DNA of 64,000 bases from Flavobacterium sp. (GTDB taxonomy: Bacteria > Bacteroidota > Bacteroidia > Flavobacteriales > Flavobacteriaceae), in the NCBI RefSeq assembly GCF_044348915.1, contig NZ_JBIKRX010000001.1, forward strand, positions 6,075 through 70,074. The letters run 5' to 3'. The position numbers were made by a program, and so were the translations under genes. The notes under the pieces are model-generated. The model made no database searches and was not told the origin of the DNA. It saw only the letters and a list, made by a program, of their open reading frames with translations. Shown piece by piece: positions 178 to 59,473 of this stretch (its first letter is position 1; each line of letters opens with the position of its first letter).

Positions 178-334
178 TTAATACAGTACTAAAGCGTTCG
201 ATTGCTTATTAAGACACTAAGGAGCGAATTTTTATTGGCTATGAATTGAGGAAAAATCCTTCCTATAAAATGCTTTATCTCTAATCATATAAATTGACTT
301 TTGTGGTCAACCTATATCAGGGAAGTACACAGAA

Positions 335-369
335 CAGATAACAGATAACGGACAACTGATAACCGATAA
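335..369. repeat. Heptamer tandem repeat (5 degenerate units)
   Basis: cagataa cagataa cggacaa ctgataa ccgataa. Confidence 0.75.
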
Positions 370-371
370 CT

Positions 372-491
372 CTACCCCCTCTTCTTCGCCTTGGTCATCA
401 TTTCTAGTTGACCCCATAATTCCTCTGGGATGGCTTCCAGAATATTGAATTCACCAGCGCCTTTCAACCATTCGCCACCGTCAATCACTAT
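372..491 (-). pseudogene. Stranded diverged copy of the last 40 codons of the SDR gene
   Basis: Translates IVIDGGEWLKGAGEFNILEAIPEELWGQLEMMTKAKKRG*; 35/39 aa identical to 1212..1331, and most nucleotide changes are synonymous. Confidence 0.92.
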
Positions 492-504
492 GATTATTGT
501 ACAT

Positions 505-833
505 TTAAAGTTCTAAAATTTTTCTTAAAATTGCAGTATCAATTGTGTTGTATTCCCCTTTATTATAAATTGAACCAAAAACTAAATTTGCATCATTTAT
601 TGAAATTATGGTTTCGTGTGTGATGATTCTACCACCACCACTAGAACCTTTCCCTTTAGATTTTATGGCAATTTTTATTTTTTAAAACCATCTCCTAAAT
701 CTGTTGCTAGCTTTAATTCTTTGTCAATATTATCAAGTAAATTTTGTAAATCTGTTTTTAATGAAGGATATTTTTTTAAGAGTGGTTTCACTTCTTTTTT
801 AAAATTATCGTGCAAAATCACATTATATTTCAT
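505..833 (-). pseudogene. RelE-like toxin, frameshifted
   Basis: MKYNVILHDNFKKEVKPLLKKYPSLK...LGDGFKK* continues in another frame as IKIAIKSKGKGSSGGGRIITH...IYNKGEYNTI...LEL*; the break is at an A6 run (T678-683); start overlaps the antitoxin stop. Confidence 0.75.
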
Positions 834-1059
834 CTAAAAAGGATTGTAGTGTTTGACCTTGTGTTTTTCCTGATGATAATTGTTTCATTTCTATGGCGGT
901 CTTTTTAAGTTTATTCAAAAATTTTTTTTCTTTTAGACTTAAAGTTTTTTTGTTTTGTTGAATAGGAGTTTCTAAAAACTCTACATATGACAAGGTTTTT
1001 GCATACTCTACAAACATTTTTGCTTGTTTGCTGTTCTCTTTTATTTTTATAGTTACCAT
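823..1059 (-). CDS. Putative antitoxin (78 aa)
   Basis: Small ORF directly upstream of and overlapping the RelE-like gene; ends with TLQSFLDEI. Confidence 0.65.
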   Translation of the reverse strand: MVTIKIKENSKQAKMFVEYAKTLSYVEFLETPIQQNKKTLSLKEKKFLNKLKKTAIEMKQLSSGKTQGQTLQSFLDEI

Positions 1060-1211
1060 AATACTAGATTTTGAAACACAAATGTATTAATAATATTGAT
1101 AAGTGTGAAGTAATCAGGTACTGTTAAACACCTCCTAATTAATAGGATTGCAAAATATAGTAACAAATACATCTATTTTTCAGTGCTCAAGCATCTGTAA
1201 TCTGAATACTG

Positions 1212-2093
1212 TTAACTCCTTTTTTTTGACTTGATCATCATTTCCAATTGATCCCATAATTCCTCAGGAATCGCTTCAAGAATATTGAATTCACCAGCGC
1301 CTTTCAGCCATTCACCACCATCGATAACGATCACTTCGCCGTTGAGGTAAGCCGAAAAATCGGATACCAAATAAGCGGCGAGATTCGCTAATTCTTGATG
1401 ATCGCCCACTCTTCCCAAAGGGACTTTTTTGGCCATATCAAACTTTTCGGCTAAGTCTCCAGGCAACAATCGGTCCCAAGCTCCTTGGGTAGGAAAAGGT
1501 CCTGGGGCAATAGCATTGGAACGAATGCCATATTTAGCCCATTCTACTGCAAGACTGCGGGTCATTGCCAGAACGCCCGCTTTGGCAGCAGCACTAGGTA
1601 CCACATAAGCTGAGCCTGTAAATGCATAGGTAGTAACAATATTCAAAATGGTTGCCGAGGCTTGTTTGGTCTCTATCCAATGTTTTCCAAAAGCCAGAGT
1701 ACAGTTTTTAGAGCCTTTCAGTACAATGTCAATCACGGTATCGAATGCATTGGCCGATAATCTTTCGGTTGGCGATATAAAATTCCCTGCAGCATTGTTA
1801 AGTAATACATCGACTTTGCCATACGCTTTTAGGACTTCTTGCAGCATGTTTTCAACTTGGTCGTAATGACGTACATCACATTGAACTGCTATGCAGGTTC
1901 CTCCCGTTTCGGCTTCAAGTGCAGCGGCTGTGGTTTGCAGTTTTTCTAAATCACGGGAACTGATTGCTACTTGTGCTCCGAGTTCCATAAAATAACGGGT
2001 CATTGCTTTGCCAAGACCACTACCGCCACCGGTTACTACAATTACTTTGCCTTTTAAGGCATCATCGCGAAGCATTTTTGCTGAGAAATCCAT
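1212..2093 (-). CDS. SDR family oxidoreductase (2,4-dienoyl-CoA reductase-like)
   Basis: TGGGSGLG Rossmann motif, NNAAGNF, YVVPSAAAK, NAIAPG. Confidence 0.9.
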   Translation of the reverse strand: MDFSAKMLRDDALKGKVIVVTGGGSGLGKAMTRYFMELGAQVAISSRDLEKLQTTAAALEAETGGTCIAVQCDVRHYDQVENMLQEVLKAYGKVDVLLNNAAGNFISPTERLSANAFDTVIDIVLKGSKNCTLAFGKHWIETKQASATILNIVTTYAFTGSAYVVPSAAAKAGVLAMTRSLAVEWAKYGIRSNAIAPGPFPTQGAWDRLLPGDLAEKFDMAKKVPLGRVGDHQELANLAAYLVSDFSAYLNGEVIVIDGGEWLKGAGEFNILEAIPEELWDQLEMMIKSKKRS

Positions 2094-3471: not shown

Positions 3472-5613
3472 TTAGGCTAGTAATATCTCCAATATGCTTG
3501 TGGCAGCTTCGCTAATTTTGGTTCCTGGACCAAAAACAGCTACTGCTCCCGCATCGAACAAGAATTGGTAATCTTGGGTAGGAATTACGCCCCCAACGAT
3601 CACCATAATGTCTTCGCGACCGTGTTTTTTGAGTTCTTCGATGACTTGAGGAACAAGCGTTTTGTGTCCTGCTGCGAGTGAAGAAACTCCAAGGATATGC
3701 ACATCGTTTTCTACAGCTTGCTTTGCGGCTTCGATTGGGGTTTGAAAAAGAGGTCCTATATCGACATCAAAACCCAAATCGGCGTAACCTGTGGCGACCA
3801 CTTTGGCACCACGATCGTGTCCGTCTTGTCCCATTTTGGCAATCATAATTCTTGGTCGACGGCCTTCTTTTAGGGCAAATTCGTCGGCCAGTTGTTTGGC
3901 TTTCTCGAAGCTTTTGTCGTCTTTTATTTCTTTGCTGTACACGCCGCTAAAGGATTTAATTTGTGCTTTGTATCTTCCGAAAACAGTTTCTAAGGCATCG
4001 CTAATTTCGCCTAAAGTGGCTCGGTGTCGCGCTGCTTCGACTGCAATATTGAGTAGATTGCCTTCGCCAGTTTGGGCACATAGGGTTAGTTTTTTTAATG
4101 AAAGTTGTACCTGTTGAGTGTCTCTAGATGCTTTAATTCGTTCTAATTGTTCGATTTGCTGTTTGCGTACCATTTGGTTATCGACATCAAGAATTTGCAA
4201 AGGATCTTCTTTTTCTAATCGGTATTTATTGACTCCTACAATGATATCTTGGCTGCTGTCGATTCGCGCTTGTTTTCTGGCTGCGGCTTCTTCGATTCTA
4301 AGTTTTGGTATTCCCGATTCGATGGCTTTGGTCATTCCGCCCAATTCTTCGACTTCTTCGATGAGTTTCCAAGCATTTTGGGCTATTTCATTGGTGAGGC
4401 TTTCGACATAAAAACTGCCTGCCCAAGGATCTACTGTTTTGCATATTTTAGTTTCTTCCTGCAAATAGATTTGGGTGTTTCTGGCAATTCTGGCCGAGAA
4501 ATCCGTTGGCAAAGCGATGGCTTCGTCCAAGGCGTTAGTATGAAGTGATTGGGTTCCTCCGAAAGCGGCAGCGGCAGCCTCGATAGTAGTTCGAGCTACA
4601 TTGTTGAACGGATCTTGCATCGTCAAACTCCAACCAGAAGTTTGGCAATGTGTACGCAAGGCTAACGATTTATCGTCTTTTGGGTTGAATTGTTTCACCA
4701 GTTTTGCCCAAATCATTCGTCCAGCTCGCATTTTGGCAATTTCCATAAAATGATTCATACCAATTGCCCAGAAAAAGGAGAGTCGAGGAGCAAAGTCATC
4801 GATTTTCATTCCTGTAGCCAGTCCAGTTCGGATGTATTCTAAACCGTCGGCAAGGGTGTACGCCAATTCGATATCTGCAGTAGCTCCGGCTTCTTGCATA
4901 TGATAACCAGAGATAGAAATCGAGTTGAATTTTGGCATATTTTTGCTGGTAAATTCAAAAATATCGGCAATAATTTTCATCGAAGGTGTTGGTGGATAAA
5001 TGTAGGTATTACGTACCATAAACTCCTTTAAAATGTCATTCTGAATGGTTCCAGAAAGTTGTACGGGTTGCACTCCTTGTTCTTCGGCTGCGACAATGTA
5101 GAAAGCCATAATGGGCAAAACCGCTCCGTTCATTGTCATAGAAACCGACATTTCACCTAAAGGGATTTGGTCAAACAATACTTTCATATCTTCAACCGAA
5201 TCGATGGCGACGCCTGCTTTTCCGACATCGCCTACTACGCGTTCGTGGTCGGAGTCGTATCCGCGGTGGGTTGGTAAATCGAAGGCTATGGATAGCCCTT
5301 TTTGTCCTGCTGCCAAGTTTCTGCGGTAAAAAGCATTGCTTTCTTCAGCAGTTGAAAAACCTGCGTATTGCCGAATCGTCCAAGGTCGGCGAACGTACAT
5401 TGTGGCGTAGGGCCCACGTAAGTTCGGTGCAAATCCTGCTCCAAAATCGAGATGTTCGAGGTTCTCAATGTCTTCTTCGGAGTAGGTTGATTTTAGTTTA
5501 ATATCTTCGGCGGTGAGGAAGGTTGCTTCATCTGATTGGTCACTTCCGGCTTCCAGCTTCCAGCTTCCAGCTTCCGACTTTTCTAATTTTATATGTTGGA
5601 TATTTTTTCTCAT
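3472..5613 (-). CDS. scpA: Methylmalonyl-CoA mutase, catalytic B12-binding subunit
   Basis: [26 protein letters not shown]12-binding DGHDRG and GVSSLAAGH. Confidence 0.97.
5543..5577. repeat. Heptamer tandem repeat inside the 5' coding region of scpA
   Basis: cttccgg cttccag cttccag cttccag cttccga; encodes part of [13 protein letters not shown]. Confidence 0.85.
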
Positions 5614-51453: not shown

Positions 51454-52326
51454 ATGTCAAACGAACAAACCGCCATAAAGGCCACGTATTTCAGTATTGT
51501 AAGCAATACTTTATTAGCCTTGATTAAGGGATTGGCTGGTTATTTTGGTAATTCGTATGCTTTGACAGCTGATGCTATCGAATCTACTACTGATATTTTT
51601 TCATCGCTATTAGTTTTATTCGGAATCAAATATTCAAACAAACCTGCTGACGAAAACCACCCTTATGGCCACGGTCGAGCCGAACCTTTAGTAACTTTCT
51701 TAGTGGTTGGTTTTTTGATTACTTCGGCAACAATTATTGCTTATGAAAGTATAATCAATATTGGAACTCCTCACGAATTGCCGGCTTCTTGGACACTAAT
51801 TATTCTCGGAACTATCATTTTATGGAAGGAATATTCTTTTCGCGTTGTGATGAAAAGGAGCAAAGAAGCGAATAGCACCTCCTTGAAAGCGGATGCTTGG
51901 CATCATCGAAGCGATGCCATTACCTCGGTTGCGGCATTTATTGGGATTTCTATCGCATTGTTCTTTGGAAAAGGCTATGAATCAGCCGATGATTTAGCCG
52001 CTCTTTTTGCCTCTGGATTTATTTTTTACAACAGTTACAAAATTTTCAGACCTGCCTTAGGAGAGATTATGGATGAACATTTGTATGATGATTTGGTGAT
52101 CGAAATACGAAAGGTTTCAATGCAAGTGAAAGGTGTGGAAAGTACGGAAAAATGTTTTATTCGAAAAGCAGGCATGAAATACCATGTGGATTTACATGCC
52201 AGTGTCAATGCCAATATCACAGTGCGTGAAGGTCACGATATTTCCCATTTGTTAAAAGATACTTTACGAACAGAAATCCCTGAATTAGGCCACGTTTTAA
52301 TTCATATTGAACCTTCTTATTCTTAA
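51454..52326 (+). CDS. Cation diffusion facilitator family transporter
   Basis: ADAIESTTD, HPYGHGRAE, HHRSD, HVLIHIEP. Confidence 0.93.
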   Translation: MSNEQTAIKATYFSIVSNTLLALIKGLAGYFGNSYALTADAIESTTDIFSSLLVLFGIKYSNKPADENHPYGHGRAEPLVTFLVVGFLITSATIIAYESIINIGTPHELPASWTLIILGTIILWKEYSFRVVMKRSKEANSTSLKADAWHHRSDAITSVAAFIGISIALFFGKGYESADDLAALFASGFIFYNSYKIFRPALGEIMDEHLYDDLVIEIRKVSMQVKGVESTEKCFIRKAGMKYHVDLHASVNANITVREGHDISHLLKDTLRTEIPELGHVLIHIEPSYS

Positions 52327-52412
52327 GAATTTTTTTACTTAAGATTACTTTATTAGAGCTTAAAATCTAATTAAAAGTTTGCAAATTGAAAACTTTTAAT
52401 TAAATTTGTGGC

Positions 52413-52742
52413 ATGAAAATCCTTGTAAAGAAAACGATTCTATTTTATACTGAAAAATATCCAATTGCAAAAACTCAATTGTTAATTTGGTATAATGAAT
52501 TTTCAAAACTGGATTTTAGCAATTTCAACGAGCTTAAACGTGTTTATGGAAATGCAAGTATTGTGAACAATGAACGAGTTGTTGTCAATATAAAAGGGAA
52601 TGATTTTCGTTTAGTGGTTTCAATAAACTTTTTACAAACTGCTTGCTATGTGATTTGGTTTGGAACTCATAAAGAATATGACAAGATTAATGTGGAAACT
52701 ATTGCTTTTGACACAGCAATCCTAAATTATAAAAAGCTATAA
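52413..52742 (+). CDS. higB: HigB-family toxin
   Basis: WYNEF...ELKRVYGNASIV...VVNIKGNDFRLVV...GTHKEYDKI. Confidence 0.88.
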   Translation: MKILVKKTILFYTEKYPIAKTQLLIWYNEFSKLDFSNFNELKRVYGNASIVNNERVVVNIKGNDFRLVVSINFLQTACYVIWFGTHKEYDKINVETIAFDTAILNYKKL

Positions 52743-52744
52743 CT

Positions 52745-53101
52745 ATGAACTGGAAAGTATTAAAAACAGAAGAAGATTACAATAAAGCTTCAATGAGATT
52801 GATGGAAATTTTCCATGCCAAACCTAACACACTAGAAAGTGACGAGTTAGATTTGCTTATGGTTTTGGTTAAAGATTATGATGATAAACATTATGAATTG
52901 CCTGAACTTGATGTTTTGGAAGTTATCAAATATAAAATGCAGGAAATGGGCTTGAAGTCAAAAGATCTTGAACCAATAATTGGTAGTAAAGGCCACGTCT
53001 CATCTATTCTTTCGGGCAAACGTGAAATTACTTTGAAAATGGCGCAAAAACTTAAAAATTATTTCAGTATTCCTGCCGAAGTATTTTTGCATAACGCATA
53101 A
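52745..53101 (+). CDS. higA: HigA-family HTH antitoxin
   Basis: EEDYNKA, DELDLLMVLVKDYD, SKGHVSSILSGKREITL. Confidence 0.88.
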   Translation: MNWKVLKTEEDYNKASMRLMEIFHAKPNTLESDELDLLMVLVKDYDDKHYELPELDVLEVIKYKMQEMGLKSKDLEPIIGSKGHVSSILSGKREITLKMAQKLKNYFSIPAEVFLHNA

Positions 53102-53159
53102 CAAAACTTCAATTCACCCCGATTTTCAGGGATTTCCGTTATCGTTATGGTAATACAAC

Positions 53160-53258
53160 GAAGGTCACGACATCTCGCATTTATTGAAAGATACTTTACG
53201 AACAGAAATCCCTGAATTAGGCCACGTTTTGATTCATGTTGAGCCTTCTTATTCTTGA
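53160..53258 (+). pseudogene. Stranded diverged copy of the last 33 codons of the CDF gene
   Basis: 90/99 identical to 52228..52326; 8 of 9 differences are synonymous (including TAA/TGA) and one is Ile to Val. Confidence 0.95.
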
Positions 53259-53271
53259 AACCTTCTTTAGA

Positions 53272-55761
53272 CTACTCCAAAACATTCAAAATTTTCAAAC
53301 CAAAAACGACTCCGTTTTCCTGAACTCCGTTTTGATTAGAATGCACATAGTCCAGTCTAAATACTTTGAGTTTGCCAAAACCAAGATTGTCCAGGCCTAC
53401 TGTGAATTCTGAATAGGGTTTTATGTCAGGAGTGGCAAGAGCGTGAAATCCTAAAACCAAAGTAGAATTCAATTTGTTCAACAACGGAATTTTATTCATA
53501 ATATAACCTTTGTCGTTGTGTTCCAAATGCGCCTCGAAATACGAATCATTCGTGCTGTTAGAATAATAAGGCATTAGGTTGAAAACGTTCAAATAGCGAT
53601 CGCTGGTTCCAATGTGCGTTCTGTTTCCGTTGAAATGTTTGTAGTCCACAAATGAAATATTATCGCCGTGAATGAAAGTTCCCGCTTTCAGATTTATTCC
53701 CAAAGCTCCTTTGTTTCCTGCATTAAAATCATATCTAACTTGACCCGTAAACAATTGGTATTGATATTTGTTTTCGTTGGCTGCAAAGGCGTTTTCATAT
53801 CCAAAATAGAGTGTCGGATAGTCGTTATTGCGAATGTTTAATTTCCCGTCAGGTCTCGAAATGTATTTGTTGCCGAAATTGATTCTTGCGGACACGGATG
53901 CTTTAGTAAGATGATGTTGATCGAAAGCTGGAGTTACATAATCGTCAGGCAATAGCGGATTATTTGAACTGTACACATCATCACTTTTAATGAATGTTTG
54001 TGTCGTAGTATTGAACAAAGGTTTCCGTTGTTGGTATTCGACAGTGCCTCTTAGGTAGAAATTATTGCCAACATCCTGACCGTAAGCAGCACCTGCAAAT
54101 TCTTTGTTGTACAATTTCATGTAATTATCCACAAAAAACAAGGAGCTTACGGTGTTTATGAATTTAGAGATAGGCTCGTCAGGATTGAATTGATTTACTT
54201 TGGTTCCACCAAAAACAGTTAGTGTTGCATAATTTTGATTGTTGAAGCGATGGTAATAATTGGCAGTTACACGTAATCTGTCATCAGAAAAGCCGTAGTT
54301 AAACTTCGTACTTATCGAGGTTGATTTTCCTTTTTCTTCTTCCTCGGCCCATTTCCGGAACGAAAAGCCGGAGTCTAGATTCCAGCCCTGAACCGTATTG
54401 AAATTTAAGGAGGACAAATTCAATACGCCATCATAGCCAAAAGAAATTTTCTTACTGCTGTTTTTCCAATTATAACCCGTGATTGGACTGTAAAATTTGA
54501 ATTTATTATCTTTCTTGTCGATCGAGTCTAAATATTTTTTAGAAGTTCGAACAGTACGTACGCTATCTTTTTTGATGTAATCGGTGTTCTCCTCAATTGT
54601 AAGTGGAATGGGTCTGATTTGATTCCAAAACAGCGTGTCTTTTTTATTGGAATCGGTTTCAAAACTTACAATTTCATTGGTAAAGGTCTTTTTTGCAAAA
54701 GCTTTTTCGAATTCGTAATTGCTGTAAACATAAGAGAATTTACCATTGAATTTTATGCCAAAGATTCCCGCTGAAAACTCAAGGCTTTGGGTGTTTTTAG
54801 CCCAAATTTTAGTGTTTTTATTATAATTGAAATTTTGTTTCAACTTCATCACATCAACAAATTCTTGATGCATTCTGTAGCCTTTGATGTCTAAATCTAC
54901 CGCGTAAATCGCCCAAGAATCTTCTACAATATAAATGTATCCTTCAAAAACGGGCTCAGCATCTCGCTTGGCGATGACTTTTATTTTGTTGATCATCATG
55001 TTGTTTTCGTCCTGAAAAGTACCTTCTATTTTGTACTTATAATAGTTGAAAGCATTGTCAGCGATAGGGGAAATCATTTTGCTGTTGAAATCCAAAGTAT
55101 TATCGTAAAAATCATAAATTGTAGAGCGCGCTGTATTGTAACTGAAACCTTTATTGTCTCCGCTTACTTTTGAAGCTATGATTCTCTCCTTTAAATTGTC
55201 GGGTTTTTCAAAAATAATTTTCGAAACGGTCTCCGATAAGTAGATAATTCCAGTTCCAGTTGAATCGACCGCACCATTTAGGTCACCAACTTTTTGGCCT
55301 AATATTTTTTTAGGCAAATCTTTGACTTTAAAGATGCCCCGGGAATAGAAATCGGCTTTGAAACGAGCTGTTTTTTCGGAATTGCCTTTTTTATTCTTAA
55401 TCGCATTTCTAATAACAGCATTTGCCGGATTGTCTTTTGGGTTTACAACTACTTCCGAAAGTGAAAGATTTTCTTCAAGCAGTTTTATGTTTTGAACGAA
55501 GGGAAATTTGTCTATGTTTAGGGTGATTTTTTGAGTTTTATATCCCAAGTATTGATAAATAATAGTGTGCTTTCCTGTTTTTTTGACGTTCAATTCGTAA
55601 TTGCCTTTATCATTCGAAGAGGTGCCGTTATAGGTATTCGCTTCTAAAACGGTAACAAGAGAAAGTGGAATTCCATTGCTGTCTGTAATGGTTCCTCTGA
55701 TTTGAGAATAGGAAAATAACGAACACAGAAAAGTGAGAAGCAAGTAAAAATTTTTCATCAA
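53272..55761 (-). CDS. Carboxypeptidase-regulatory-like domain plus DUF5686-like outer-membrane protein
   Basis: IRGTITDSNG.PL, YLGYK, SPIADNAFNYY, FNTVQGW, beta-strand-rich C-terminus. Confidence 0.8.
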   Translation of the reverse strand: MMKNFYLLLTFLCSLFSYSQIRGTITDSNGIPLSLVTVLEANTYNGTSSNDKGNYELNVKKTGKHTIIYQYLGYKTQKITLNIDKFPFVQNIKLLEENLSLSEVVVNPKDNPANAVIRNAIKNKKGNSEKTARFKADFYSRGIFKVKDLPKKILGQKVGDLNGAVDSTGTGIIYLSETVSKIIFEKPDNLKERIIASKVSGDNKGFSYNTARSTIYDFYDNTLDFNSKMISPIADNAFNYYKYKIEGTFQDENNMMINKIKVIAKRDAEPVFEGYIYIVEDSWAIYAVDLDIKGYRMHQEFVDVMKLKQNFNYNKNTKIWAKNTQSLEFSAGIFGIKFNGKFSYVYSNYEFEKAFAKKTFTNEIVSFETDSNKKDTLFWNQIRPIPLTIEENTDYIKKDSVRTVRTSKKYLDSIDKKDNKFKFYSPITGYNWKNSSKKISFGYDGVLNLSSLNFNTVQGWNLDSGFSFRKWAEEEEKGKSTSISTKFNYGFSDDRLRVTANYYHRFNNQNYATLTVFGGTKVNQFNPDEPISKFINTVSSLFFVDNYMKLYNKEFAGAAYGQDVGNNFYLRGTVEYQQRKPLFNTTTQTFIKSDDVYSSNNPLLPDDYVTPAFDQHHLTKASVSARINFGNKYISRPDGKLNIRNNDYPTLYFGYENAFAANENKYQYQLFTGQVRYDFNAGNKGALGINLKAGTFIHGDNISFVDYKHFNGNRTHIGTSDRYLNVFNLMPYYSNSTNDSYFEAHLEHNDKGYIMNKIPLLNKLNSTLVLGFHALATPDIKPYSEFTVGLDNLGFGKLKVFRLDYVHSNQNGVQENGVVFGLKILNVLE

Positions 55762-58504: not shown

Positions 58505-58576
58505 TTTAATTTAAAGTTGTTAAACCACGCTATCGGCGTGGTTTTTTTATGTCTAAAAATAGCTTTTCTTTGTACT

Positions 58577-59473
58577 ATGAATTGGAACTCTCAAATCAAA
58601 AATTATCAATCGTATCTCCGCATTGAAAGAGGTTTGTCAATAAACACTATCGATAATTATTCTTTCGATATCGAACGATTGTGCCTTTTTTTAGAAGAGA
58701 ATGCCATTGAAGTTTCTCCAATCAAAATCAATGAAGAAATCATTCAGCAGTTTATTTATAGTGTTTCGAAAGAAGTGAATCCTCGTTCGCAAGCTCGAAT
58801 TATTTCGGGATTAAAAAGTTTTTTTAGTTATTTGATTTTCGAAGATTATCGTTCTGACAACCCGATGGAACTCATTGAAACGCCTAAAACAGGCAGAAAA
58901 CTTCCCGATACCTTATCTGTCGAGGAGATTGATAAGTTAATCTCTGCAATCGATTTGAGTTCGAATGAAGGGGAGCGCAATCGAGCCATGTTGGAAACCC
59001 TCTATGGTTGCGGGCTTCGGGTTTCGGAATTGGTTTCTTTGAAAATATCGGATTTGTTTTTTGACGAAGGATTTCTGAAAATCACTGGAAAAGGAAACAA
59101 GCAGCGTTTTGTACCAGTTGGCGATTTGACACAAAAATACATACAGATTTATCGAGATTACAAAAGAGCAGATTTGAATATAAAGAAAGGGCAAGAGGAT
59201 ACTTTGTTCTTGAACAGACGAGGAAGTCAGCTTACCAGAGCGATGGTTTTTACGATTATCAAAGATTTGGCTGTCAAAATTGAATTAAATAAAAGCATCA
59301 GCCCGCATACCTTGCGCCATTCCTTTGCTACCCACCTTTTGGAGAATGGTGCCGATTTGCGTTCGATTCAATTAATGTTAGGTCACGAATCGATTACCAC
59401 TACGGAAATTTATGTGCATTTAGATCGACGATTCTTAACAGAAGTAATGAACAATTTTCATCCGAGAAAATAG
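58577..59473 (+). CDS. xerD: Site-specific tyrosine recombinase XerD-like (probable start MNWNSQ)
   Basis: LYGCGLRVSEL, GKGNKQR, SPHTLRHSFATHLL, LGH, TEIY. Confidence 0.88.
   Translation: MNWNSQIKNYQSYLRIERGLSINTIDNYSFDIERLCLFLEENAIEVSPIKINEEIIQQFIYSVSKEVNPRSQARIISGLKSFFSYLIFEDYRSDNPMELIETPKTGRKLPDTLSVEEIDKLISAIDLSSNEGERNRAMLETLYGCGLRVSELVSLKISDLFFDEGFLKITGKGNKQRFVPVGDLTQKYIQIYRDYKRADLNIKKGQEDTLFLNRRGSQLTRAMVFTIIKDLAVKIELNKSISPHTLRHSFATHLLENGADLRSIQLMLGHESITTTEIYVHLDRRFLTEVMNNFHPRK

What the first reader, a model, noticed from the sequence alone, without database searches (positions are those of the whole stretch)
52228..53258. Intact higBA inserted between the CDF gene and a 99-bp stranded copy of its 3' end
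Seen: 52228..52326 and 53160..53258 differ at 9 positions, 8 of them synonymous, so both evolved as coding sequence in separate lineages. Only higBA lies between them. This is the same architecture as 372..1331 at an unrelated gene with an unrelated TA family. Inference: a recurring integrase-free route by which TA cassettes enter this genome by replacing a host gene's 3' end.
Basis: partly seen in the sequence, partly recalled or inferred. Interest (0 to 1): 0.64.

Follow-up and report, generated by a model that had tools for sequence, protein, structure and literature searches.

The report
Toxin-antitoxin cassette between duplicated gene ends
A small toxin-antitoxin gene pair sits between two slightly different copies of the last 33 codons of a metal-efflux gene in a Flavobacterium, one of at least ten such "gene-end bracketed" accessory cassettes in this genome, which points to a way of moving defence-type genes that seems to need no integrase of its own.

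Summary
Window 52228-52326 and 53160-53258 are two alleles of the CDF gene's last 32 codons plus stop: 9 differences in 99 nt, of which 7 are synonymous, one is I->V and one is TAA->TGA. Only an intact higBA module lies between them.

The site is empty in most of the genus, where CDF abuts the convergent DUF5686 gene. One other species (G221) has the same cassette at the same gene, with a shorter stranded end. Its cassette is far less diverged from this genome's (pS 0.24-0.29) than the host genes are (0.65-0.72).

The architecture recurs at 10 or more gene ends in this genome. Differences between copies fall 51/30/128 by codon position. Cargo is largely TA or defence-candidate genes, and includes both HigB genes. 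No integrase lies in or beside any cassette. The nearest recombinase is syntenic XerD. At atpG the stranded-copy length varies between species (0-237 nt).

Best reading: recombination-driven, integrase-free insertion and spread, with the duplicated gene end acting as homology. This is a Flavobacterium/TA variant of "insertion with long target duplication", described for restriction-modification genes. The mechanism and the polarity of the two alleles are not proven. A recombinase acting in trans is not excluded.

The parts
51454..52326 (+). CDF (cation diffusion facilitator) gene, intact; its last 99 nt are the 'attached' repeat copy
   Evidence: Cation_efflux E 7.9e-50 and ZT_dimer E 1.6e-20. 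Orthologues of the same 290-aa length occur in relatives.
52228..52326 (+). Attached copy of the CDF 3' end (32 codons plus TAA)
52327..52412 (+). Cassette leader: AT-rich promoter region and a 22-nt-arm palindrome (52363-52407), the likely HigA operator. This is where conservation of the cassette begins in more than 40 genus genomes.
   Evidence: Inverted repeat I1; promoter-like site 52339-52366; conserved AAGTTTGCAAATTGAAAACTTTT in all relatives. The operator role is inferred.
52413..52742 (+). higB, RelE-like toxin, intact (109 aa)
   Evidence: PF09907 HigB_toxin E 6.7e-26; same length in G221.
52745..53101 (+). higA, HTH (XRE-type) antitoxin, intact (118 aa)
   Evidence: HTH_3 E 6.3e-6; TIGR02607 E 1e-4, below cut-off.
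53102..53159 (+). Cassette 3' tail. It aligns with the 3' UTR of the same cassette in G081/G188 up to about 53141, the point where an attC-like element begins in those genomes. It ends ...ATACAAC at the junction.
53160..53258 (+). Stranded copy of the CDF 3' end (32 codons plus TGA), in the ancestral position 13 nt from the DUF5686 stop
   Evidence: In empty-site relatives one CDF end matches both copies and is followed directly by DUF5686.
53272..55761 (-). Convergent DUF5686 gene, the ancestral neighbour of CDF
   Evidence: PF18939 E 2e-254; adjacency in relatives.
1212..2093 (-). SDR gene of the sister locus; 1213-1331 is its attached 3' end copy
   Evidence: adh_short_C2 E 2.3e-49.
505..1059 (-). 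Cargo of the sister locus: a 78-aa putative antitoxin (823-1059) and a RelE-like toxin gene interrupted by a frameshift in an A-run (833->505)
   Evidence: The family call is weak (RelE E 0.11 on the read-through).
373..491 (-). Stranded copy of the SDR 3' end (119 nt, 83% identity; 14 of 20 differences at third positions)
58517..59473 (+). XerD, the nearest tyrosine recombinase (5.3 kb away). It is housekeeping and not part of the cassette.
   Evidence: TIGR02225 336.8 bits, above the equivalog cut-off. Orthologues lie at the same distance from CDF in 22 of 120 other loci.

Best explanation
Window 52228-53159 (or any circular permutation of it) is a 0.93-kb accessory insertion at the ancestral CDF|DUF5686 convergent junction. 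It has two parts. One is a self-contained higBA module with its own promoter/operator palindrome, a RelE-like toxin and an HTH antitoxin. The other is a second allele of the CDF gene's last 32 codons plus stop.

I think host recombination installed it, using DNA from another Flavobacterium lineage, and that no element-encoded integrase was involved. The duplicated gene end is the homology that directs the cassette to this gene. Three routes give the same product: a Campbell-type single crossover of a circular [gene end + cassette]; a double crossover in which the stranded copy serves as the right-hand arm; or homology-facilitated illegitimate recombination. In each case CDF stays intact, one allele is stranded, and the cassette ends up bracketed by direct repeats. 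Those repeats can later undergo gene conversion, loop-out and re-insertion in relatives. The very first duplication at a given gene probably arose by an illegitimate join.

Shown: the duplication; the allelic (synonymous) divergence; the empty site in relatives; the same cassette at the same gene in a second species with much lower divergence than the host genes; the recurrence; the absence of integrases; and variable repeat boundaries at atpG.

Inferred: dependence on RecA, the form of the intermediate, the direction of transfer, and which copy is native.
For: (1) Two alleles, not an in-situ target duplication that drifted. At this locus 7 of 9 differences are at third positions. Over 10 loci the counts are 51/30/128 (p=1.5e-16). 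Polarising with relatives puts about 4-6 changes, all silent (synonymous, or stop-to-stop at site 97), on the attached copy and 3 on the stranded copy, where neutral drift predicts about 4:1 the other way.

(2) Empty site. In G330, G288, G256, G135 and G338 a single CDF end is followed directly by DUF5686. Twelve further genus genomes have gaps of 70-330 nt.

(3) Site fidelity with horizontal transfer. G221 has CDF, then the same higBA, then a 52-nt stranded CDF end. Between G000 and G221, pS is 0.65 for murA, 0.72 for CDF codons 1-258, 0.38 for the CDF last 32 codons, 0.29 for higB and 0.24 for higA. Cassette versus CDF gives Fisher p=1e-15. G221's own two copies also differ mostly synonymously (4 of 5; sequence).

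(4) No recombinase. None lies in the cargo. There are 11 PF00589 hits in the genome and none is adjacent to a cassette. The nearest is XerD. In 120 further CDF-end loci only syntenic XerD appears, and there is no second CDF end.

(5) Boundaries are not fixed. The stranded copy is 99 nt in G000 versus 52 nt in G221 at CDF. At atpG-Uma2 it is 91, 81, 237, about 14, 6 and 0 nt in six species. G026 carries two tandem [atpG end + Uma2] units that are 85% alike, as repeated Campbell-type addition predicts.

(6) Cassette orientation relative to the repeats is opposite at the genome's other higBA locus, C101.

(7) 14 of 32 higBA loci in other species are flanked by diverged direct repeats. These include gene 3' ends, gene 5' ends and terminators, which are exactly the classes of target fragment that leave genes intact after insertion-duplication.
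Against: So RecA dependence, the intermediate and the polarity of the alleles are all untested.

Both CDF-end copies are about equally close to relatives.

The last 32 codons of CDF are somewhat more conserved across the genus in general. The cassette is also AT-rich (GC 0.30 versus 0.356). Both facts could inflate the apparent drop in pS.

Repeats of about 100 nt at 83-91% identity are poor RecA substrates.

At atpG the cargo's pS equals the host's pS. That linkage is therefore old, and its 97% identical copies need gene conversion or re-recombination to explain them. A recent entry does not.

No microhomology is evident at the 53159/53160 junction.
Confidence: 0.5

Rival explanations
1. The repeats are attL/attR of a non-autonomous mini-element. 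This could be a CIME-like remnant, or an integron-type cassette inserted at a non-canonical site. It would be moved by a recombinase encoded elsewhere, such as one of the roughly 400-aa integrases in the genome or the Xer/IntI-like enzyme on contig C148. The element-borne half of the att site would restore the CDF 3' end, as in e14 and phage 21 at icd.
For: Surrogate gene ends with synonymous differences are the classical signature of integrase-mediated insertion into protein genes (established knowledge: e14 and phage 21 in E. coli icd). The same higBA cassette lies in arrays of attC-like hairpin repeats in relatives. G000 has attC-like sites next to an Xer/IntI-like recombinase. The genome encodes 11 tyrosine recombinases. 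The repeat begins with an 11-nt identical block.
Against: Ten or more different target genes would need as many specificities. No integrase-bearing element was seen at the CDF end in about 270 genus genomes with hits or in 120 further loci. Repeat boundaries vary between species at the same gene. The cassette here has no attC, only a roughly 40-nt 3' UTR remnant. Cassette orientation relative to the repeats is not fixed.
Confidence: 0.2
2. A 'long target duplication' was made at the moment of insertion, through staggered breaks or replication-associated repair, and gave two identical copies. The present allelic differences arose later. Ordinary homologous recombination replaced the functional CDF allele (or the stranded copy) with alleles from other strains, with patchy gene conversion between the copies.
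For: This is the mode proposed for restriction-modification units flanked by 30-500-bp target repeats (PMC2853133). At atpG the insertion is old yet the copies are 97% alike within each genome and 88-89% between species, so post-insertion recombination between or into the copies does occur. The 44-nt identical core here is compatible with a conversion tract.
Against: It does not explain why the same cassette sits at the same gene in two species whose host genes are saturated at synonymous sites while the cassette is not. It needs an extra step to account for the strong synonymous bias. No enzyme is known that makes about 100-nt staggered cuts.
Confidence: 0.2
3. Assembly artefact: two strain variants of the CDF end were joined around a cassette in a draft assembly.
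For: The genome is a 163-contig draft. Reads could not be checked.
Against: The same architecture occurs in independent assemblies of other species: G221 at CDF; G222 and G026 at atpG; L054/L058 and L053/L062 at other genes. Completeness is 100% and contamination 0.39%. Both junctions lie well inside a 114-kb contig.
Confidence: 0.02

Closest known systems
Insertion with long target duplication of restriction-modification gene units (Nobusato et al. 2000; Furuta, Abe and Kobayashi 2010, NAR, PMC2853133)
   Same: A small selfish or defence-type gene unit with no mobility gene. It is flanked by direct repeats of more than 30 bp that are single-copy in the empty site of relatives. The repeats sometimes overlap a gene's 3' end, and repeat lengths vary.
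   Different: Here the cargo is TA modules and other accessory genes in Bacteroidota, not RM systems. There are 10 or more loci in one genome. The copies are distinct alleles that differ mainly at synonymous sites, not near-identical duplicates. The same cassette recurs at the same gene in another species with lower divergence than the host genes.
Integrative elements that carry a surrogate 3' end of the gene they enter (e14 and phage 21 in E. coli icd; established knowledge, not re-read here)
   Same: The gene stays intact because the insert supplies an alternative 3' end. The displaced native end is left as a pseudo-fragment. The differences are largely synonymous.
   Different: Those elements are 10-40 kb, encode their own integrase and use a fixed core. 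Here the inserts are 0.6-3.2 kb, no integrase is present, and the boundaries vary.
Homology-facilitated illegitimate recombination and insertion-duplication (Campbell-type) integration during transformation or conjugation (e.g. PMC3240628; de Vries and Wackernagel 2002 and Prudhomme et al. 2002, from memory)
   Same: The product topology is the same: one homologous anchor, foreign DNA added, and possible duplication of the anchor. No dedicated recombinase is needed.
   Different: These are laboratory phenomena. Natural competence of this Flavobacterium is unknown (F. johnsoniae was negative, PMC7965970). No microhomology is visible at the junction.
Integron gene cassettes and CALIN arrays, including higBA cassettes of the Vibrio cholerae superintegron (the Vibrio case is from memory)
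   Same: The same higBA unit, promoter included, occurs in relatives between attC-like hairpin repeats with R''...AAC and GTT...R' ends.
   Different: At this locus there is no attC and no attI or IntI context. The flanks are copies of a host gene end.
Type II toxin-antitoxin system HigBA
   Same: HigB_toxin domain, HTH antitoxin, toxin-first gene order, and a palindromic operator upstream.
   Different: Nothing unusual in the module itself. Activity was not tested.

Membership tests
HigBA type II toxin-antitoxin module | RelE-superfamily HigB toxin domain | tested here: met
   PF09907 E 6.7e-26, 90.8 bits against a cut-off of 27.
HigBA type II toxin-antitoxin module | HTH (XRE) antitoxin encoded immediately downstream of the toxin (toxin-first order) | tested here: met
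   HTH_3 26.6 bits (cut-off 23). The ORFs are 2 nt apart, with higB first. The HigA equivalog TIGR02607 scores only 22 bits against a cut-off of 47.7.
HigBA type II toxin-antitoxin module | Toxin arrests growth and antitoxin neutralises it | not testable with these tools
   Needs expression assays.
Insertion with long target duplication | Direct repeats longer than 30 bp flank the insert and correspond to one copy in an empty site | tested here: met
   99-nt repeats. A single copy followed directly by DUF5686 in G330, G288, G256, G135 and G338.
Insertion with long target duplication | No transposase or integrase in or beside the insert, and insert shorter than 20 kb | tested here: met
   Only higB and higA lie in the 833-nt interval. 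PF00589 hits are elsewhere. The nearest is XerD.
Insertion with long target duplication | Repeats generated from the target at insertion (near-identical when young) | tested here: inconclusive
   The copies are 91% identical and differ as alleles. This could reflect import of a foreign allele or later allele replacement.
Integrase-mediated integrative element (att sites in a gene 3' end) | Cognate integrase within or adjacent to the element, here or in relatives | tested here: not met
Integrase-mediated integrative element (att sites in a gene 3' end) | Fixed crossover core, hence the same repeat boundary wherever the site is used | tested here: not met
   CDF: 99 nt versus 52 nt. atpG: 0 to 237 nt in six species. 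Erosion by deletion could explain some of the shorter copies but not the longer one.
Integron gene cassette | attC hairpin site at the 3' end of the cassette | tested here: not met
   Only a roughly 40-nt tail aligns with the cassette UTR of relatives. The attC-like element that follows in G081/G188 is absent. attC-like sites do flank the cassette in L003, L059, L061 and L069.
Transposon / IS / MITE | Terminal inverted repeats, short target duplication, transposase | tested here: not met
   There are no terminal inverted repeats at the insert ends. The repeats are 99 nt and direct.

The most novel reading that the evidence does not exclude
The duplicated gene ends are the working parts of a recombinase-free class of mobile cassettes. 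Each cassette would carry a copy of the end of a conserved housekeeping gene as a portable homology arm. It would home to that gene in any related genome by host homologous recombination, leave the gene intact, and be able to loop out again as a circle. This would be a general mobility mode for TA and defence genes in Flavobacterium, and, judging from earlier notes of this scan, in other phyla too.
Probability: 0.35. Interest if true: 0.75.

Novelty: new variant of a known kind. Interest (0 to 1): 0.55.

Why it matters
How small defence and toxin-antitoxin genes move between genomes without recognisable mobile-element genes is an open question in the study of defence islands and hotspots.

This genome gives a dense, internally replicated data set. 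It has 10 or more gene-end-bracketed cassettes, including both of its HigB modules. It shows both an old locus (atpG-Uma2) and a recently exchanged one (CDF-higBA). It also links the cassettes to integron-like arrays in relatives.

If the gene-end copy is indeed the targeting homology, three things follow. Cassettes would sit immediately after conserved genes for a mechanistic reason. The 'long target duplication' seen around restriction-modification genes would have a mechanism. And there would be a simple bench test: recA-dependent integration of a circle carrying about 100 nt of a gene end.

If the cassettes are instead mini-elements moved in trans, the loci define new att sites and non-autonomous elements in Bacteroidota.

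Tried and rejected
1. In-situ target-site duplication followed by neutral drift. Rejected on the codon-position bias and the polarised change counts.

2. Adjacent integrase or 'reduced island'. None was found in the cassette, the flanks, G221, G393, G034 (which has an IS30 at the site but no duplication) or 120 other CDF-end loci. The nearby recombinase is XerD.

3. tRNA or other RNA gene as the att site. None present.

4. Search for the donor or for conspecific empty sites. The exact 44-mer of the shared core gave no hit in genome contigs or metagenome contigs. A degenerate codon pattern returned 120 loci, all with a single copy. The nearest relatives are only 82-88% identical, so crossover points and polarity could not be mapped.

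5. Identity profiles along CDF and DUF5686 against G393, G221 and G288. No clear import breakpoint.

7. Shared motif or microhomology at the junctions of the 10 loci. None convincing.

8. SDR sister locus in 150 genus genomes. The site is empty in about 130 and the cassette occurs elsewhere in only two, so nothing could be learned about boundaries.

9. Family assignment of the sister-locus TA. Pfam and NCBIfam gave nothing significant.
Full report
**Observation**

The window is C106:6075-70074 of a 3.14-Mb, 163-contig Flavobacterium draft genome (genus names from the record titles). The CDF gene 51454-52326 (+) carries Cation_efflux and ZT_dimer domains. Its last 99 nt (52228-52326) recur at 53160-53258.

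The two copies differ at 9 positions. Seven are third-codon-position synonymous changes, one is I->V, and one changes the stop from TAA to TGA. Homology starts abruptly at 53160 and ends at the stop codon.

The 833 nt between the copies hold three things:
- an AT-rich leader with a 22-nt-arm palindrome (52363-52407);
- higB (52413-52742; PF09907, E 6.7e-26) and higA (52745-53101; HTH_3);
- a 58-nt tail.

No RNA gene is present. Thirteen nt after the stranded copy lies the stop of the convergent DUF5686 gene (53272-55761, -).

SDR gene 1212-2093 (-) has its last 119 nt repeated at 373-491 at 83% identity. Two corrections apply. The toxin gene of that cassette is interrupted by a frameshift in an A-run. 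The TA family assignment is weak.

**The site in relatives**

In most of the genus, CDF and DUF5686 are adjacent with a 70-330-nt spacer. In the closest empty-site relatives (G330, G288, G256, G135, G338) a single CDF end matches both copies and is followed directly by DUF5686. The stranded copy therefore sits in the ancestral position, and the higBA segment is an insertion.

Other species hold other things at this junction without any duplication: a 168-aa ORF in G393 and an IS30 in G034.

One other species, G221, has CDF, then the same higBA, then a shorter stranded CDF end. That end is 52 nt and starts right at the HigA stop. Four of the five differences between G221's own two copies are synonymous (sequences).

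Between G000 and G221 the proportion of synonymous differences (pS) is:

| Segment | pS |
|---|---|
| murA | 0.65 |
| CDF codons 1-258 | 0.72 |
| CDF last 32 codons | 0.38 |
| higB | 0.29 |
| higA | 0.24 |

Cassette versus CDF body gives Fisher p=1e-15. So the cassette, and possibly the attached gene end, share a much more recent ancestor than the host genes, yet occupy the same site. That is horizontal transfer with site fidelity.

Two caveats apply. The CDF end is somewhat more conserved across the genus in general. The cassette is AT-rich, GC 0.30 against 0.356.

**Recurrence**

A self-comparison of the genome found the same architecture at ten gene 3' ends. Host genes were checked; cargo.

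| Host gene | Contig | Repeat length (nt) | Identity | Cargo |
|---|---|---|---|---|
| Class II aminoacyl-tRNA synthetase | C17 | 131 | 84% | two 62-aa ORFs, no family |
| S4/pseudouridine synthase | C38 | 97 | 82% | four-ORF cluster incl. PadR-type HTH_34 and DUF4153 membrane genes |
| UvrA-like ABC ATPase (UvrA by eye; Pfam shows only ABC_tran) | C58 | 77 | 91% | DUF559 nuclease-like |
| CvpA | C59 | 49 | 88% | 46-aa ORF (not searched) and 151-aa ORF, no family |
| Mg-chelatase/ComM-like | C69 | 217 | 82% | 190-aa ORF, weak DUF4440 |
| ATP synthase gamma (atpG) | C88 | 91 | 97% | Uma2 (PADLOC PDC-S03) |
| DUF1508 protein | C101 | 43 | 91% | second higBA |
| SDR | C106 | 119 | 83% | RelE-like TA, toxin frameshifted |
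| CDF | C106 | 99 | 91% | higBA |
| MnmE | C163 | 274 | 84% | 1017-aa GHL10/T9SS protein |

All ten repeats end within 0-2 nt of the stop codon. Pooled differences fall 51/30/128 on codon positions 1/2/3 (p=1.5e-16). About 70% of the divergence therefore accrued under coding constraint.

Further cassettes lie between diverged repeats that are not gene 3' ends. These repeats are intergenic, or in one case a tRNA fragment. Their cargo is Bro-N (PDC-S13), AAA_14/DUF4143 (PDC-S01), BlaR/BlaI, an ankyrin protein, and AbiEi/AbiEii with a PrimPol. Both HigB_toxin genes of the genome lie in this architecture. At C101 the cassette is in the opposite orientation relative to the repeats. None of the 11 PF00589 hits in the genome is in or beside a cassette. 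The one 5.3 kb from this locus is XerD, and it is syntenic with CDF in other genomes.

**The cassette elsewhere**

The higBA unit (about 52373-53106, beginning at the conserved palindrome) occurs at 79-94% identity in more than 40 genus genomes in many contexts. Of 32 loci examined, 14 have diverged flanking direct repeats of 30-282 nt. These are gene 3' ends, gene 5' ends, terminators, and about 140-nt hairpin repeats with ...CTAAC and GTTAG... ends. The hairpin repeats fold like integron attC sites.

G000 itself has such attC-like sites next to an Xer/IntI-like recombinase on contig C148. The 58-nt tail at 53102-53159 aligns with the cassette's 3' UTR in G081/G188 up to where their attC-like element starts. 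The module therefore probably derives from an integron-type cassette that lost its attC.

**A second, older locus**

Uma2 follows atpG in G126, G404, G222, G026 and G128 as well. The stranded atpG end varies in length:

| Genome | Stranded atpG end (nt) | Note |
|---|---|---|
| G000 | 91 | |
| G222 | 81 | |
| G026 | 237 | lies between two tandem [atpG end + Uma2] units that are 85% alike |
| G404 | about 14 | |
| G126 | 6 | |
| G128 | 0 | |

Here cargo pS is about equal to atpG pS, so the linkage is old. Yet the two copies are 97% identical within G000 and within G222, while the species differ by 11-12%. The repeats therefore keep recombining, by gene conversion or re-insertion.

The variable boundaries argue against a fixed att core. 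So does the 237-nt copy, which cannot derive from a shorter one.

**Interpretation**

The data fit a recombination-based, integrase-free process in which a copy of a conserved gene end provides the homology. A circle or fragment [gene end + cassette] from a related lineage recombines with the resident gene end. This keeps the gene intact, strands one allele, and creates direct repeats that permit conversion, loop-out and spread.

Only target fragments that contain a gene end or intergenic DNA leave genes intact. Those are exactly the classes observed.

I put this at about 0.5. The intermediate, RecA dependence and allele polarity are untested. The repeats are short and diverged, and competence of this organism is unknown (PMC7965970 reports F. 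johnsoniae as not competent).

The rivals are:
- A recombinase acting in trans on mini-elements, including the integron-like enzyme (about 0.2).
- A true long target duplication at insertion, followed by allele replacement and conversion (about 0.2).
- An assembly artefact (about 0.02). This is made unlikely by the same architecture in independent assemblies.

**Comparison with known systems**

The closest described phenomenon is 'insertion with long target duplication' of restriction-modification units (Nobusato 2000; Furuta et al. 2010, PMC2853133). Its mechanism is still unknown. The present case extends it in five ways:
- to TA and other defence-candidate cargo;
- to Bacteroidota;
- to many loci per genome;
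- to repeats that are distinct alleles;
- to a case of cross-species transfer to the same gene.

It resembles e14 and phage 21 at icd in outcome but fails the membership tests for an integrase element: no integrase and no fixed boundary. It also fails the tests for an integron cassette at this locus (no attC) and for a transposon. The higBA module itself is ordinary.

**Earlier notes of this scan**

Earlier notes describe the same class in other Flavobacterium genomes and other phyla. I treated them as leads. My own tests here agree with them.

**Limits**

No genome closer than about 85-88% identity was available.

Noticed in passing
genome contig C148:100-5400 (not in the window): Two ~140-nt attC-like hairpin repeats (R'' GCCTAAC / GCTAAC ... 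R' GTTAGGC / GTTGGCA, with a 4-nt unpaired spacer and bulged bases) bracket small reverse-oriented ORFs. They lie next to methyltransferase- and nuclease-like genes and a 347-aa Xer/IntI-like recombinase that scores below the integron-integrase cut-off. This may be an integron-like array in a Flavobacterium.
   Followed up: partly
L003, L059, L061, L069 (G016, G164, G074, G220): In these relatives the same higBA cassette sits in arrays of cassettes about 0.9-1.4 kb apart, separated by the same kind of attC-like repeats (motif GCTAACGTCCCG ... CTGTTAGC).
   Followed up: partly
L221 (G026:C1 ~693.3-695.3 kb): Two tandem [237-nt atpG end + Uma2] units that are 85% identical follow atpG. This looks like two successive additions at the same gene end.
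   Followed up: partly
L218, L219 (G126, G404): A 19-nt copy of the atpG end (GAAGCTTTGAAAGGATAA) lies 32 nt after the real atpG stop, immediately before the Uma2 cassette. The cassette seems to carry a remnant gene end on its left side here.
   Followed up: no
window 53125-53140 and 53201-53216 (also 52269-52284): A 16-nt stretch of the cassette tail (TTCAGGGATTTCCGTT) is 15/16 complementary to the centre of the CDF-end repeat. It could form a hairpin with a 60-nt loop next to the junction. It may be chance (roughly 0.2-1 expected per 6 kb).
   Followed up: no
window 505-833 (-): The RelE-like toxin gene of the SDR-locus cassette is split by a frameshift in an A6-7 run while its 78-aa partner is intact. 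This is a decaying module, a sequencing error or slippage.
   Followed up: partly
window 330-375: A run of GTTATC-type heptamers (GTTATCGGTTATCAGTTGTCCGTTATCTGTTATCTGTT on the minus strand) directly follows the stranded SDR end.
   Followed up: no
genome contig C42:4762-7917: A 3.1-kb block with AbiEi, AbiEii and an AEP/PrimPol (TOTE-type) gene lies between a tRNA gene and a diverged copy of part of it, with no integrase inside.
   Followed up: no
L077 (G221:C3 ~45.6-50.8 kb): Downstream of G221's stranded CDF end, DUF5686 is reduced to a 178-nt 3' remnant. A 142-aa ORF, a PEP-carboxylase-like 901-aa gene and a further small gene pair (165-aa and overlapping 82-aa ORFs, TA-like by eye, not searched) occupy the region. 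The junction is a rearrangement hotspot.
   Followed up: no
genome contigs C58:3161-3200 and 3700-3750; C88:41496-41530: GC-rich hairpins (CCCCTTCTCTGGAGGGG, CCCCTCCATAGGAGGGG, CCCCCGCCGCGGCGGGGG) sit at cassette edges in an AT-rich genome that also encodes an IS200/RAYT-like gene (C75:29051-29479). They may be REP-type elements.
   Followed up: no
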